A stretch of DNA of 64,000 bases from a virus, in IMG/VR virus record IMGVR_UViG_3300016476_001289. The stretch is one strand, 5' to 3'. Made by a program: the position numbers and the translations under genes. Positions 28,591 through 41,060 of this stretch are shown piece by piece. How positions within the stretch are numbered: position 1 is the stretch's first letter; the number at the start of each line of letters is the position of its first letter. The notes below the pieces were generated by a model. The model searched no databases. It was not told where the DNA came from and worked only from the letters and a program-made list of their open reading frames with translations.

Positions 28591-29151
28591 ATGTATGGGT
28601 TTAATCGTAGAATAGCAAAAGCTAATGTGAATCCTATTAGACAGAGAACACAATTTTCATGTGTTGCTGCGTCAACAGCTATGGCATTAAATGCTTTAGG
28701 TGTTAAGTGTACTGAAGATGAGGTGAATGAAGTAATAGGTGCAAGACCAATGACAGGAGCTTCATGGGAGTCTGTATTGGCTTGTGTACAACATTATGGT
28801 TGTAGAGGGACTTTAGTCACCCCTGCAACATTAAAACAAGTTAAAGAATGGACAGATGCAGGTAAACCTGTTCTTATAGGGTGGAATCCTGAAGGTCGTG
28901 AATGGAGTCATGCTTCTTTGATATTTGATGTGGTGGCTAAAGAAGGTGGTGGGTATGATGTATATGTAGCAGACTCAAATATACCTGATCCTGAAGAAAC
29001 CGTAAGAATAGTAGACGGTAAAGAATTTTATAGTAAATGGTATGAAAAATACAATGGCTATTTAATTCGTAGGTCTGCGCTTATGGTAGATAATGAAATT
29101 ACACCTGAAGGTCGTCAAGTAATGGCATCACTTAGAAAGCGTAGATTTTAA
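28591..29151 (+). CDS. C39-like papain-fold cysteine peptidase
   Basis: RQRTQFSCVAAS (Gln and Cys at 28660), WSHAS (His at 28909), VADSN; C39-type spacing. Confidence 0.8.
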   Translation: MYGFNRRIAKANVNPIRQRTQFSCVAASTAMALNALGVKCTEDEVNEVIGARPMTGASWESVLACVQHYGCRGTLVTPATLKQVKEWTDAGKPVLIGWNPEGREWSHASLIFDVVAKEGGGYDVYVADSNIPDPEETVRIVDGKEFYSKWYEKYNGYLIRRSALMVDNEITPEGRQVMASLRKRRF

Positions 29152-32818: not shown

Positions 32819-35800
32819 ATGAACGACATTAAAAAATCACTTATTAAAATTGCTTATACTAACCCTAATTTAAGAAAAGATATTATTGAGATCACTCAAA
32901 AATCAGAAAACAAAGAACAATTTATAAAAGGTATTATTAAACTTGCTTACCATAATCCTGAAATTAGAGAAGATGCTTTAGTTTTCTTAAAAGAAGCAGG
33001 TTCAGGTAAACAAGAAAAAAGACTCAATAAGTCTTTTTCTGAAGGTAATGCAATGGGTGGGAAGTATAATAAAAACAAATCAGAACAAAAGCCTAAATCA
33101 GATATACCTGTTAGTATTTACAACTCAGCTAAAAACAACACATATAGTAATATTAATCTTAAAGACTATGTAGACAAAGAATTAAATGGTAAAACTTTAC
33201 CTAACCCTGCTCTAAAAAAGAATCCTAATGCTAAAAAAGAAGTAGCAATATCGACTATTTTTAACCATATCACTAAAAAAGATGAATTTGCTGAAGATGC
33301 AAAACAAATAATACAACCTTATCTTGAAGCTATTGTGAAACAATACGAATCTGATACAGGTGAAAAAGGTGAAAGTAAAGGAAAAGAACAACAAGTAGAA
33401 CAAGGTCAACCACAACAACCTACTGTTGAAGGTTCACCTAAATCGGTGGTTGAACAAACTAATCAAAAATTAGAAGAAGAACTAGATACTAAAGCAGACA
33501 AGATTGTTGATTTACCCGAAGAACAACAAGAACAAGAAATAGAAGAAGTCGCTTATGGAACATTAGAAAGTACGGTTTCTAATGTGTTTGATAGCTTAGG
33601 TGTTCCTAATGCTAAAGAAGTAGGTGAAAGTGTAATACAAGGTAGAAAAGAAGATAGAGAAGAAGATAAAAGAATAGAAAAAGAGAAACAAGAAATAGAA
33701 AACCAAATAAAAGAAGATCGTAATCATGGAATAAAAGAAACAATAGATGAAGTTGAGCATATAGACTTTGAAACTATGATGCCTGATCTATTTAATAATA
33801 TAGATAAAGACATAAAATGGAATGATGATGAAGATTACTTAAAAGATGATGCTTATCCTCAAAAATTCTTAGATCTCTCTGATGTTATTCTTTCCGACCC
33901 CACAAAAGAGAATATTATAGATGGTATAAATCATCTTCCTGAACCTATACAAAGAGAACTTGTAGAAGACCTAAAAGAAAATGGGGTAGATAAAAAAACT
34001 TTGGGGTTTCTTTCAATTACTTTTAAAGTCCTCTCAGAATCAGTTGGAGAGACTTTTTCTCATATGAAAGGAATATTTCATTCTATTAAAGATGGGTTTT
34101 CTTTTCCTGAGTTAATGTTTGATGATGATAAAATAGCTAAAGCAGATGCTTATTTAAGAGAAAGAGGTCTTCAATATAATGATAGTTATTTATTAGGAGA
34201 GAAAAGAGAAGAAACAATTAAAGCATTAAAAGAATTTCAAAGCTTAGATAAAACAAAAAATATGTTTCAAAAAGATTTACCTAAAGGTACAAGTACTCCT
34301 ATGCTTCCAAGTGTGGTGAAAGAGATAGCTAGTCTCAGAGGTAATATAAAAGATGATGATTTTAAAAAATTAGTGTCTTTAACTTTAGGTGGAGATGGCA
34401 AAAATATAACAGAAGAAATCCAAAATGGGTATACAGGTAACGCAGAAGACTTTAAAAAAGAATTTGAAAAACACAAAGATCTAATGGATAAGGCTAAAAA
34501 ACTAGGTGTTGATTTTGAAGGTCTTTCTAAAGATGAATCAAAGAAAGAAGCTTTAAATAAAGCAAATGACTTCCTAAAAGATAAAAACATCAACAATTCT
34601 TTAAAAAAAGAGATAGCAAAGAATTTTATGGAAGGGAAAATATCGGATAAAGATACAGAATTACTAGATAGGGTGTTAAAGAGAGAATTATCACCCGAAG
34701 ACAAGTTAATTGTAGATAAGCAAGATACGATGCTAGATAGTTTTAAGAAATTAAAACAAAATAGAGATAAGAAAGAACAAATTAAAGAATTTGCTAAGAC
34801 TCAAAATTATAAAGACGAAACTCTATTTAATGCACCATCTATCTCTTATGATGCCATAGTAGAAATGTCTAAGTCTAAAGACCCTGATGATAGCGAGTGG
34901 GCTAAAAAGAAATTAAAACAAATAGAAAAAGACTATGACAAAGATATAGAAGATAAAGCTCGTACGACACAAAAAGAAAGAGAAAATATAGAAGCTTTAT
35001 TTAAACCTGAATCGGAAGGTGGAAAACCACTCAAAATTAAAGATGAACATGGAAATAAATATACCATAGAAGAAATATATGATATGGCAGATGACCCCTC
35101 TGACCCTAAGAAACAATCCTGGGCTTCTAAGCAATTAAGTGATATTAAAAAATCTATGTCTGGAGAATTAGATGCTTCGGAATCTGAAATGAAAGAAGAA
35201 AAGCATAAAGAATTGAAAAAAGACAAAGAAGATTTAATCAAATCACATGAAGATAATAAAAGAAATTTAATAGTAAAGCATACACAAAAGCTACAAGAAG
35301 TACAAAAAGACTATGATGATAAAAGAAAGAATATAGAAGATAGCACAAACAATGATATTAAAATTAAGACCAATGAAATTAATGAAGGTTTAAGAGATAA
35401 GAGAATGGAATCCGACTCTGAGATACATGAGATTCTTAAGAATAATGGATTTGACTATGAAGATAAAAAACAAAAGATAAATGAAGATTATGAAAGTGAG
35501 ATAGCAGGGGCAATTGGAGATGGTGAGAAGCAAAAAGAAATTACAGATAAAAGAGAAAAAGCTTTAAGTGCATTAGATAAAGAGAAAAAAGATAAAATCA
35601 AAGCTATACCTGAAGCTAAGACGATAGAAGATGGGTATGTTGCACATGAAAAAGCTAAAAAAGGTGTTCTTCAAAGAGCAATAAATAAAAAGAATAAAGC
35701 TAAAGAAGATGCACTAAAACAATTAAAAGATGAACATGAATCTACTGTAAAGAACGAAGAAGATAAACATAAAGTAGATATTAATACCGAAGAGCACAAG

Positions 35801-36804: not shown

Positions 36805-38223
36805 ATGAGGATTATGATGAGAGTAATAGCTAAAGAACGATCAGATGATGAAAAAAAAGAGATTTATGACAAATGGCATGATCTTATTAATATGTCTGAG
36901 AAAGAATTAGTCGAATGGGGTAAGAACCCCGACCATCTTGAAGCTTCTTTGAATAGAGAAGAAGCTAAAGACAATGGGAAAATACAATCAGGATATGACT
37001 CATTCCATAGAATTAAAAGAAGAAAAGATAAACCCTTTGAAGATTGGACAGCTCAAGATTTTGACAATGCTAGTCAAGAGAATGGGTTTAATGGTCGTAT
37101 GCTTGGTGGCAATCCTGGTAAAACTGTAGGTTCAACTGGCATGAGTAAATGGGAAATCTCATTAAGAAATTGGGGACATGATCCTAGTAAACCTAATAGT
37201 CCTTCATATAAAAAATGGAAAAAATGGAAGAAAGAAAACGAGGAAGAAATTAAAATGAGTCTAGCTAAGAAAAAGAAAGCAAATCTAATATCCGATTTGT
37301 ATCAAATGAGTTTTAAAGTTAAAGGTGGTGAGAAACTAAGACAAGCTTGTTTAATGTGTTTAAACACTAAAAAAGCTAATGCTATGGTTATTACACCCGA
37401 GTTAATTGACTCATTACCTGAAGATAAACAAGAAAAATTAAAATTTGATGTTTTAGTTGCTCACTTAGATCAAGTAAAGAAAGACATAAATTCTCAAATA
37501 GGTATGAGTATAGATATTATTAAGTCTTACTTACAAGATAAAGGTCTTTTTAATGGTAAAAATCTTTTAAGTATGGGGCTTAAAAAGCCTATTAATATTC
37601 TAGAACAAAAAACTATTCAAATCTTAAATTCTTTTGCAGATAAAAAAGACCCTTATTCTTTATTGAAATTTACAAGTGCTTTAATTGCAGCAGACACACC
37701 TGAAGAAGTAGCTACCTTAATCAAATTGCCTGTTTCTGAAATACAAAAAGAAATACCACTAAACAACTTAGGTGAGAAAAGTGAAAAAGGGGTTTCTATT
37801 ATTATGGGTATGGATGAACTAAAATTTTTTGCTGTTAATTGCTCTCTAAGTTTACTTAAAGTAGTCTTAATACAAGTAGTGTTTTTAGGTGCTACTATAG
37901 GTGGTGCTTTAATGCACCTAGTTCCTGTCCTTGTTGTTATTCTATTAATGGCTATCTTAACCGATTCTAAAACAACAGCTAATTTCTTAAAAAAAATGAG
38001 TATTGCTAGTACTGTTATTCCTTCGGTTCTTATTGCTAGATTAATCCCACACCTTAAACTAGCTTACAATAAAATATCCGATGTCTTAGGTGAAGCTTAT
38101 ACATGGGCTAAAGATAAAACTAAGTCTTTGTTTAATAGTAAACAAGCTGTTCTTAGAGAAGCTATTAAACTAGCTTCTTCTAATCCTATATTTTATAGAA
38201 TGCTTGAAGAAAGACTATGCTAA
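36805..38223 (+). CDS. DUF3140-like domain fused to a membrane segment, with tag motif
   Basis: WHDLINMS.KEL..W and WEISLRNWGHDP match DUF3140; C-terminal hydrophobic helices; AIKLASSNP tail. Start may be 36814. Confidence 0.75.
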   Translation: MRIMMRVIAKERSDDEKKEIYDKWHDLINMSEKELVEWGKNPDHLEASLNREEAKDNGKIQSGYDSFHRIKRRKDKPFEDWTAQDFDNASQENGFNGRMLGGNPGKTVGSTGMSKWEISLRNWGHDPSKPNSPSYKKWKKWKKENEEEIKMSLAKKKKANLISDLYQMSFKVKGGEKLRQACLMCLNTKKANAMVITPELIDSLPEDKQEKLKFDVLVAHLDQVKKDINSQIGMSIDIIKSYLQDKGLFNGKNLLSMGLKKPINILEQKTIQILNSFADKKDPYSLLKFTSALIAADTPEEVATLIKLPVSEIQKEIPLNNLGEKSEKGVSIIMGMDELKFFAVNCSLSLLKVVLIQVVFLGATIGGALMHLVPVLVVILLMAILTDSKTTANFLKKMSIASTVIPSVLIARLIPHLKLAYNKISDVLGEAYTWAKDKTKSLFNSKQAVLREAIKLASSNPIFYRMLEERLC

Positions 38224-39789: not shown

Positions 39790-40782
39790 ATGATGAATAA
39801 AGAAGCTTGTATTATTGCTACGGGTGAATGGGGTGGAAGTCGTGTCTTATTTAAAAATAGAGATAGAAATTACTTACCCCCAGTAAAAGTATATCACGAA
39901 GTTATTAATGGTGTTGAAATTTTATATTATAAAGATGAACTCACAGGGTGGGTTGAAGGTATGAATGAATATGGTATAGGTCTCGTAAATGCAGCTTTGT
40001 CTGTTACTGATGATGAAAAAGAAAAAAATAGGGTCACTAATCCTAAAATAGTTGTCCTAAACAAAGACCCTAAAAAAGTTCTCAAAGCACTCCAACAAAA
40101 AACTTTAGATGAAGCAGTAGAAACCATTTGTAGCTATCTTGGTGGTTTAACAGGTCACACTTTCGTATCTGATGGTGTTGTTACTAAATCTATTGAACTC
40201 ACTAAAGAACATGGATGTATTGTAAAAACCCTTAGAAATGGTGGCATCCATGTAAGAACTAATCATGGTATTAATCACGAAGAAGCAGGTTATCAAGAGG
40301 GGGTTAAAAGAGATAGTTCTGTTATGAGAAGAAATAGAGCTATCCGTAAATTAAAAGAAGTTCAATATGTTGAAGATGTAGCACCTACCGTATATGGCTA
40401 TCGTGTAGGTAAAGACCCCTTTAATCCTCTAAATATGGTAAGAGATAGTAAAGAAAAAATAGATATGAAATCCACTTCCCAAGTCGTTATGGATTTAAGT
40501 AATAAAAAAATGTATCTCTATCTCATTCCTAGAAAAGTTAAATTCTTAGGATACTACAAAAACAATAATGTTAAAAAACCTAAGTGTGAATTGTCTGTTA
40601 TTAAATATACAGGTATTAAAGAAGATGGCACTTTTGATATGGATATCGTAGATACTCTTGATTATGGGATTAAAGACTATATACCACCTTCTAAAAGATT
40701 AGCTTCTCAAATGATTAGAACAGCTATGCTTAAAAAAGATATTTTGTCGGGTCTTAATCCTGAAGTAAAAAAAAAAGCCTAG
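39790..40782 (+). CDS. Ntn-hydrolase (C45/C59-like) with a 6-aa leader
   Basis: MMNKEA|CIIA...KNRD...EGMNEYG...RTNH match the CBAH/C45-type Ntn fold; nucleophile Cys codon at 39808. Confidence 0.75.
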   Translation: MMNKEACIIATGEWGGSRVLFKNRDRNYLPPVKVYHEVINGVEILYYKDELTGWVEGMNEYGIGLVNAALSVTDDEKEKNRVTNPKIVVLNKDPKKVLKALQQKTLDEAVETICSYLGGLTGHTFVSDGVVTKSIELTKEHGCIVKTLRNGGIHVRTNHGINHEEAGYQEGVKRDSSVMRRNRAIRKLKEVQYVEDVAPTVYGYRVGKDPFNPLNMVRDSKEKIDMKSTSQVVMDLSNKKMYLYLIPRKVKFLGYYKNNNVKKPKCELSVIKYTGIKEDGTFDMDIVDTLDYGIKDYIPPSKRLASQMIRTAMLKKDILSGLNPEVKKKA

Positions 40783-41060
40783 ATTTAGAAGTTGAAGGTG
40801 AATATAAAGGTATTGGCACTAAGAGTAAATTTACCATAGGTGATGAAATTGTTAATTTAGAAGTGGATCAAGATAAGAATATCTTTATAAATTGTACTTG
40901 TGGGTTTTGGATATATCAAGGTTGTGAGTATCATGCTAAAACGGATGGGTATTTATTAGGTTCACCTCAAGGAACGGCTAATAAACCTAAAAAGAAAGAC
41001 CCTGAAGGTGAAAATAGAGTATGTAAACATACTTATGCTGTGTTAAATAAGATTAAATAG
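40764..41060 (+). CDS. SWIM zinc-finger domain, in the -1 frame relative to the Ntn-hydrolase end
   Basis: NCTCGFW...CKH SWIM signature; frame is open from 40764 across the A10 run with no ATG (track uses GTG 40863). Confidence 0.7.
   Translation, partial: SKKKSLDLEVEGEYKGIGTKSKFTIGDEIVNLEVDQDKNIFINCTCGFWIYQGCEYHAKTDGYLLGSPQGTANKPKKKDPEGENRVCKHTYAVLNKIK

What the first reader, a model, noticed from the sequence alone, without database searches (positions are those of the whole stretch)
39790..39830. Ntn-hydrolase zymogen: catalytic Cys sits directly behind the K-E-A site
Ntn hydrolases need the nucleophile as the free N-terminal residue (established). This one reads MMNKEA|CIIATG, so Met removal cannot expose Cys7, but cleavage after KEA, the same motif seen at FLKEA|GSG and across the cargo proteins, would. 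This is the best internal evidence that K/R-x-A is a real cut site, and suggests an enzyme armed only during capsid maturation. Autoprocessing, as in C45 enzymes, is the alternative.
Basis: partly seen in the sequence, partly recalled or inferred. Interest (0 to 1): 0.75.

Follow-up and report, generated by a model that had tools for sequence, protein, structure and literature searches.

The report
Phage amidase unlocked by head protease
A jumbo phage related to Bacillus phage G encodes an amide-cutting enzyme whose essential first residue is hidden behind six residues that end in the likely cut site of the phage's own head-maturation protease; the same gene in unrelated T4-like phages carries their protease's known cut site instead, so the enzyme is probably switched on during head assembly, although no cleavage has been measured.

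Summary
Observation confirmed. ORF 39790-40782 (330 aa) has an Ntn-hydrolase fold; Cys7 superposes on the nucleophile of IAT, NAAA and bile-salt hydrolase. Of 245 homologues, 174 have [KR]-x-[A/S/G] directly before the Cys (leaders 5-1557 aa), 52 have aliphatic-x-E and 17 start Met-Cys. The class follows the phage's head protease: K-x-A records carry a phage-G-type protease (11/19; gp21 0/19), x-x-E records carry T4 gp21 (8/18; G-type 0/18), whose measured site is L/I-x-E. Head proteins and neighbouring gene starts show the same double dissociation, and no active-site position differs between classes. Phage G's published mature capsid length implies a cut after Ala, at a position that reads K-L-A in this lineage. 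Trans-cleavage is therefore likely (about 0.8). Packaging and delivery are inferred (about 0.55). The substrate is unknown. Limits: only 1-2 independent motif switches; leaderless variants exist; bare K/R-x-A counts in the window's cargo genes are not enriched; this genome's own protease was not seen. The scan reached this reading before on other genomes (six reports). Added here: a conserved A-run at the gene's end whose -1 frame joins a SWIM finger.

The parts
39790..40782 (+). Gene for a 330-aa Cys-type Ntn hydrolase precursor
39790..39807 (+). Six-residue leader (five from the second ATG); no signal peptide, no in-frame start next to the Cys
39799..39807 (+). K-E-A: predicted P3-P2-P1 of the head-protease site; cut predicted between 39807 and 39808
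   Evidence: inference from covariation
39808..39810 (+). Cys7, predicted N-terminal nucleophile of the mature enzyme
   Evidence: invariant; aligned to known nucleophiles
39808..40640 (+). Catalytic domain (about residues 7-283). Arg24 (39859), Asp25 (39862), Asn67 (39988), Asn158 (40261) and Arg180 (40327) are kept in all three leader classes; their roles are inferred from the BSH/IAT pattern (own knowledge)
40696..40782 (+). C-terminal tail with R-L-A-S (40696) and R-T-A-M (40717) in a predicted helix: candidate packaging tag and further cut sites (inferred)
   Evidence: 103 of 115 K-class homologues with a tail have K/R-x-A/S just after the domain (no chance control run)
40767..40776 (+). 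Run of 10 A, the only run of 9 or more A in the window; a -1 slip here bypasses the stop codon
40776..41060 (+). -1 frame open from the A-run to 41060, encoding a SWIM zinc finger; would give a fusion of about 423 aa
   Evidence: same arrangement in five relatives, in-frame fusion in P0006
39321..39743 (+). Gamma-glutamyl cyclotransferase (AIG2-like) gene directly upstream; recurrent neighbour or fusion partner; has no K/R-x-A leader or tail
32984..33007 (+).

Best explanation
The protein is made as an inactive precursor. The phage's own head-maturation serine protease (phage G gp19 type, His/Ser, HK97/assemblin-like motifs) cuts after K-E-A and frees the alpha-amino group of Cys7, which makes the Ntn active site. 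Shown: fold, nucleophile position, the three-class leader rule and its match to the protease family of each genome. Inferred: the cut itself (about 0.8); that it happens in the prohead on a packaged protein that is later ejected into the next host (about 0.55); that the tail tag does the packaging. My best guess at the chemistry (about 0.3) is hydrolysis of an amide or isopeptide bond, working with the gamma-glutamyl cyclotransferase on gamma-glutamyl compounds or tags, as part of a counter-defence cargo.
For: Leader rule in 245 homologues, including domains buried up to 1557 residues deep in polyproteins. G-type protease in 11/19 K-x-A records and 0/25 others; gp21 (PF03420) in 0/19 K-x-A records, three of them at least 95% complete, in 7/17 E-class records plus MA9V-1, and 4/7 Met-Cys records; a second E clade also lies 6 kb from gp21. 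T4 gp21 cuts after L/I-x-E (PMC9026906). Head proteins: K-x-A 2.6x in G013, 2.4x in phage G, 2.1x in Tunturi_5, 1.7x in Bxz1, with L-x-E not significantly enriched; the reverse in T4-like G023. Starts of neighbouring genes show the same split. The window shares 36 of 61 ORFs with G013 but only this gene with two T4-like records, so the gene moved between lineages and its leader matches each. 34 positions are at least 90% conserved in all three classes and none is class-specific. Phage G capsid protein is 282 aa and 255 aa mature by N-terminal sequencing (PMC5646251); that puts the cut after Ala27, aligned to K-L-A in ten Ntn-bearing records and Tunturi_5 and R-L-G in Bxz1. Phage G, Tunturi_5 and Bxz1 have the motif-rich heads but no Ntn hit, so the Ntn enzyme is not the source of the code.
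Against: No cleavage, activity or virion data for any family member. The tree needs only two K/E changes and its backbone is open, so one switch cannot be excluded; many records are near-duplicates. The protease of this very genome was not seen (no genome held; the 95% relative is a fragment). In phage G itself P3 of the inferred capsid cut is Ala, the site is deduced from a table length, and PDB 6wkk lists the chain as 280 aa. Met-Cys variants show that masking is dispensable. Short self-removed propeptides exist in Ntn enzymes such as penicillin V acylase (PMC4756867). The protease model was too poor to confirm its fold (pLDDT 43); that call rests on PHROG 18299, E 1e-16, and 34% identity to phage G gp19.
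Confidence: 0.78

Rival explanations
1. Autoprocessing: Cys7 attacks the preceding peptide bond, as in C45, C59 and C69 enzymes, and the leader motif is the enzyme's own preference or only a packaging tag.
For: Closest folds are self-activating proenzymes, including ones with 3- and 8-residue leaders (2iwm, 5img; PMC4756867). Best family hit is named autoproteolytic (NF040521).
Against: The P1/P3 residues switch from small/basic to Glu/aliphatic with the phage's protease family while no position of the catalytic domain differs between the classes. The alpha-chain of C45 proenzymes is missing (match covers profile 135-313 only).
Confidence: 0.1
2. The head protease does make the cut, but the enzyme is not delivered cargo: it works late in the producing cell or inside the prohead (a timer, or clean-up of core peptides).
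For: Expressed gp21 activates a cytoplasmic host enzyme by cleavage (PMC12991175). Many leaders are only 4-5 residues, little more than the site. The GGCT neighbour here has no tag. In G023 the gene lies between gp21 and the scaffold and capsid genes.
Against: Fusion partners are RNA-repair enzymes, topoisomerase IB, superoxide dismutase and an ADP-ribosyltransferase, which fit action in a newly infected cell. T4 Alt has a 7-residue propeptide and is packaged and ejected (PMC9026906). The gene is patchy: absent from phage G, Tunturi_5 and cluster C phages.
Confidence: 0.25
3. The cut is real but masking is a by-product: any N-terminal head tag on an Ntn enzyme must be removed exactly at the Cys, so exact placement reflects packaging, not selection for a switch.
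For: Met-Cys versions arose about four times and persist, one at the same locus as a four-residue E-leader (L048 versus L078).
Against: Minimal leaders (Met, one residue, motif) are the commonest K-class form (44% have Met at P5) even where a separate C-terminal tag exists, which suggests the short site is kept for its own sake.
Confidence: 0.3
4. A host protease or aminopeptidase removes the leader.
For: Hosts are unknown; phage lineage and host group are confounded. Signal peptidase exposes the Cys of some periplasmic Ntn enzymes (own knowledge).
Against: No signal peptide; the same motif is concentrated in scaffold and protease proteins of the same phages; sites also lie deep within polyproteins.
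Confidence: 0.04

Closest known systems
T4 internal proteins IPI-III and Alt, processed by prohead protease gp21 (PMC9026906)
   Same: Short N-terminal propeptide ending in the head protease's motif; non-essential enzyme cargo; L/I-x-E is exactly the motif of the E-class homologues.
   Different: Here the protease is the phage G gp19 type with a predicted K/R-x-A site. In T4 the propeptide is described as a targeting sequence; here its removal is chemically required for catalysis. Packaging is not shown.
Peptidase family C45 / isopenicillin-N acyltransferase (PF03417, NF040521), with NAAA and acid ceramidase
   Same: Fold and Cys nucleophile position (Z 17-19); best Pfam and NCBIfam hits.
   Different: Below both curated cut-offs; 11-15% identity; no alpha-chain; leader looks like a foreign protease site; found in viruses (three nearest Atlas clusters 95-100% viral).
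Penicillin V acylase / bile-salt hydrolase (C59) and C69 dipeptidases
   Same: Single-chain Cys-Ntn enzymes that start Met-Cys or remove a few residues.
   Different: Their short propeptides are self-removed; none is known to me to depend on a phage protease.
CBASS CD-NTases activated by prohead protease cleavage (preprint PMC12991175)
   Same: An enzyme switched on by a prohead-protease cut at the protease's motif.
   Different: That is a host sensor cut in an internal loop; this is the phage's own enzyme, unmasked at its N-terminal nucleophile.
Bacillus phage G, Tunturi_5 and cluster C mycobacteriophage head modules
   Same: Capsid protein (38-47% and 28% identity) and head protease family of the window's lineage; K-x-A-rich scaffolds.
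   Different: They lack this Ntn gene; I found no paper giving their protease's specificity.
PPH and AAH phage proteasome-like Ntn proteins (PMC8665760)
   Same: Phage-borne Ntn enzymes of unknown function.
   Different: Thr-type proteasome fold, no propeptide; a different Ntn branch.

Membership tests
Ntn-hydrolase superfamily, Cys type | Four-layer alpha-beta-beta-alpha fold | tested here: met
   AF2 pLDDT 86.5; Foldseek E 8.5e-9 to IAT; Z up to 19
Ntn-hydrolase superfamily, Cys type | Nucleophile at the start of the first strand, N-terminal in the mature chain | tested here: met
   Cys7 invariant and aligned to IAT 103, NAAA 126, BSH 2, PVA 1; it is residue 2 in 17 homologues
Ntn-hydrolase superfamily, Cys type | Amide-hydrolysing activity | not testable with these tools
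   no assay
Peptidase C45 (PF03417 / NF040521) | Score above the curated family cut-off | tested here: not met
   Pfam 19.4 bits against 23.2; NCBIfam 31.7 against 85; a few homologues pass the Pfam cut-off
Peptidase C45 (PF03417 / NF040521) | About 100-residue alpha-chain before the nucleophile | tested here: not met
   six-residue leader; match covers profile 135-313 only
Peptidase C45 (PF03417 / NF040521) | Autocatalytic processing | not testable with these tools
   comparative evidence points away from it
T4-type internal protein with capsid targeting sequence | gp21 (S77) protease with L/I-x-E site | tested here: not met
   0 of 19 records of this leader class carry PF03420; met for the E-class homologues
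T4-type internal protein with capsid targeting sequence | Propeptide ending in the motif that is enriched in the phage's own core proteins | tested here: met
   K/R-x-A 2.6x in protease and scaffold of relative G013; 2.0x at ORF ends in the window
T4-type internal protein with capsid targeting sequence | Present in processed form in virions and ejected | not testable with these tools
   no proteomics found; MA9V-1 paper has SDS-PAGE only
Substrate of a phage G gp19-type head protease | The genome encodes that protease | tested here: inconclusive
   own genome not held; 11 of 19 related records have it; window shares 36/61 ORFs with one of them
Substrate of a phage G gp19-type head protease | Measured specificity K/R-x-A | tested here: inconclusive
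   one published length implies P1 = Ala in phage G gp27, P3 = Ala there but Lys/Arg in relatives

The most novel reading that the evidence does not exclude
A mobile phage enzyme family whose catalytic switch is outsourced to the head-maturation protease: the gene moves between unrelated jumbo-phage lineages and rewrites three residues to fit the local protease, is loaded inactive, armed in the prohead and injected to strip gamma-glutamyl or other amide-linked tags in the next host. The family thereby reads out the unknown specificity of the phage G / cluster C head protease (K/R-x-A/S/G, cut after the small residue), and a programmed -1 slip adds a SWIM finger to a fraction of the molecules.
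Probability: 0.4. Interest if true: 0.8.

Novelty: new variant of a known kind. Interest (0 to 1): 0.63.

Why it matters
It fixes the register of the cut for a head-protease family with no specificity that I could find in print (phage G, Tunturi_5, some 200 cluster C mycobacteriophage records), so cargo and mature ends can be predicted across that lineage and tested in cultivable phages. It would be a clear case of a virion enzyme whose activity depends chemically on head maturation, and an Ntn enzyme gives a simple activity reporter for any prohead protease. An isolated phage with the gene exists (Chryseobacterium phage MA9V-1, gp182), so the central claim is directly testable.

Tried and rejected
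Own genome and sequencing runs were not available. Sequence searches of PDB gave nothing for the enzyme or the protease; PHROGs has no family for the enzyme. Pfam S78 does not detect the lineage's protease. Folding the protease from nine sequences failed (pLDDT 43), so no fold search was run on it. Whole-protein K/R-x-A counts in window cargo genes were uninformative. Small contigs of the second E clade held no head genes; a longer one did. The phage G cryo-EM/proteomics paper is not held. Literature searches found no description of this phage Ntn family or of its activation; subscription papers are mostly not searched. Rejected: a hidden start codon next to the Cys (none in frame); a signal peptide (leader too short); the Ntn enzyme as the maker of the K-x-A code (phages without it have the code). 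No complex prediction was run, as enzyme-substrate pairs are not informative in that tool.

Full report
The observation. ORF 39790-40782 encodes 330 aa and begins with six residues ending K-E-A, then Cys7. Both in-frame ATGs leave a leader of 6 or 5 residues. Pfam gives only a weak AAT/C45 hit (19.4 bits), but the AlphaFold model (pLDDT 86.5) matches isopenicillin-N acyltransferase, NAAA, bile-salt hydrolases and penicillin V acylase, and structural alignment starts at model residue 7 against the known nucleophile in each mature chain. Cys7, Arg24, Asp25, Asn67, Asn158 and Arg180 are invariant. That Ntn enzymes need a free alpha-amine on this residue is established knowledge. So the protein must be cut at exactly this bond to work.

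Where it comes from. The window is part of a jumbo myophage. It shares 36 of 61 ORFs with a complete 312-kb IMG/VR genome (G013). G013's head module has a capsid protein 38% identical to Bacillus phage G gp27 and related to Tunturi_5 and cluster C mycobacteriophages, preceded by a scaffold and a protease-like gene (PHROG 18299 head maturation protease, E 1e-16; 34% to phage G gp19; conserved His130 and Ser181). The window's own head genes lie outside the window and were not seen; a first-stage note (e1-5682942, unchecked) reports a K/R-x-A-rich scaffold in this genome.

The leader rule. Two searches gave 245 homologues with a recognisable Cys. 174 have Lys or Arg at P3 and Ala (82%), Ser or Gly at P1, with leaders of 5 to 1557 residues; 52 have Glu at P1 and Leu, Ile, Val or Met at P3 in 98%; 17 start Met-Cys; two are exceptions. 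P2 and everything upstream of P3 vary. Chance levels for the two triplets are 3.7% and 1.1%. Many K-class copies are domains inside polyproteins with RNA ligase, 2H phosphoesterase, poly(A) polymerase, topoisomerase IB, superoxide dismutase or ADP-ribosyltransferase domains, and they keep the triplet directly before the Cys.

The leader follows the head protease. Among viral records holding the gene, the T4 gp21 family was found in 0 of 19 K-class records, in 7 of 17 E-class records plus isolated phage MA9V-1, and in 4 of 7 Met-Cys records. The phage-G-type protease was found in 11 of 19 K-class records and 0 of 25 others. Most records are fragments, but the three K-class and three other records at 90% completeness or more split cleanly. 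gp21 cuts after L/I-x-E by experiment (PMC9026906), the motif of the E class. Head proteins show a double dissociation: K/R-x-A is 2.6-fold enriched in G013 head proteins and not in the T4-like G023, L/I-x-E 1.9-fold in G023 and not significantly in G013; phage G, Tunturi_5 and Bxz1 follow G013. The first 30 residues of neighbouring ORFs do the same (2.3x in 16 K loci, 1.4x in 21 E loci, no cross-enrichment). This gene is the only window ORF with a match in the two T4-like records tested. Both K clades and both E clades of the tree have a member beside the expected protease (G013 and G019; G023 and L164).

One measured cut. Hua et al. 2017 list phage G gp27 as 282 residues, 255 mature, from N-terminal sequencing (PMC5646251). 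That places the cut after Ala27, and the computed mass (28.17 kDa) matches their 28.2. The aligned position reads K-L-A in G013, nine further Ntn-bearing records and Tunturi_5, and R-L-G in Bxz1. In phage G itself P3 is Ala, and PDB 6wkk lists 280 residues, so this supports P1 = Ala but not the basic P3.

Against autoprocessing. Short self-removed propeptides exist (2iwm and 5img). But 34 positions are conserved in all three classes and none separates the K from the E class at 80%, while P1 changes from Ala to Glu. The C45 alpha-chain is absent. Phages with K-x-A-rich heads and no Ntn gene exist. Slow self-processing on top of the protease cut is not excluded.

Limits. The trees need two K/E changes and have an open backbone: the correlation rests on one or two events, and its weight comes from the match to a motif known beforehand and from the within-genome enrichments. 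Met-Cys forms arose about four times; L048 has one at the same locus where L078 has a four-residue E-leader, and L149 is a Met-Cys form among genes resembling the window's lineage. So masking is not essential to the family. Bare motif counts do not identify sites in other cargo proteins. Packaging is inferred from the T4 precedent, the tail tag and the fusion partners. gp21 can also activate a cytoplasmic enzyme (PMC12991175), so activation outside the head is possible.

Function. The substrate is unknown. A gamma-glutamyl cyclotransferase lies directly upstream here and in L002 and L165, and two different GGCT types are fused at either end in both classes. This recurrence suggests joint action on gamma-glutamyl amides or isopeptide tags; I put that at about 0.3.

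A second feature of the gene. Its last codons contain the only run of nine or more A in the window (40767-40776). One base back, the frame is open to 41060 and encodes a SWIM finger. Five relatives at 49-95% identity keep a run of 9-10 A and the same -1 relation, and P0006 is fused in frame. A programmed -1 frameshift or transcriptional slippage is likely; it is untested, and no strong downstream RNA structure was found.

Prior notes and literature. I reached the leader and protease comparison before reading the scan's follow-up reports; searches then showed six reports with the same reading on other genomes. They are not independent evidence. Ten paper searches found no description of this family or of the G-type protease's site.

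Verdict. Real, well supported by comparison, unmeasured. A new variant of a known kind (protease-processed head cargo), in which processing is chemically required for catalysis. Interest 0.63.

Noticed in passing
window 40767-41060: Conserved A-run at the end of the Ntn gene with a -1 frame open into a SWIM zinc finger; same in L002, L147, L165, L167, L168; in-frame fusion in P0006. Candidate programmed frameshift or slippage.
   Followed up: partly
L145:15290-16138 (phage G gp27): Published mature length (255 aa) implies cleavage after Ala27; the aligned site is K-L-A in 11 relatives and R-L-G in Bxz1.
   Followed up: partly
window 28591-29151: C39-like cysteine peptidase (Pfam E 2e-7) with a short basic leader containing R-I-A; homologue in G013 (67%) begins with R-K-A. 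Possibly another processed cargo enzyme.
   Followed up: no
L147:10001-11988: Two tandem paralogues of the Ntn gene, both with K-E-A before the Cys; only the second has the A-run and SWIM frame.
   Followed up: partly
L149:9290-10307: Met-Cys variant next to a phage-borne translation initiation factor IF-1-like gene, among genes resembling the window's lineage.
   Followed up: no
G013 (L094-L109), many ORFs e.g. 151847-157091: Dozens of unrelated ORFs share a coiled-coil-like N-terminal leader ending in K/R-E-A or K-Q-A/S, a different tag from the helical L-I-K-x-A-Y tag of the window.
   Followed up: no
P0146, P0128, P0122-P0171: Polyproteins up to 2792 aa joining this domain to RNA-repair enzymes, topoisomerase IB (9 of 66 scanned), poly(A) polymerase and superoxide dismutase, with K/R-x-A-rich linkers.
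   Followed up: partly
window 36805-38223: N-terminal DUF3140-like domain; a similar domain precedes the Ntn domain in several homologues (P0021, P0067, P0076, P0077).
   Followed up: no
L114-L127 (G023) 249260-255786: In this T4-like genome the Ntn gene lies inside the gp21 - core - scaffold - gp23 gene run.
   Followed up: yes
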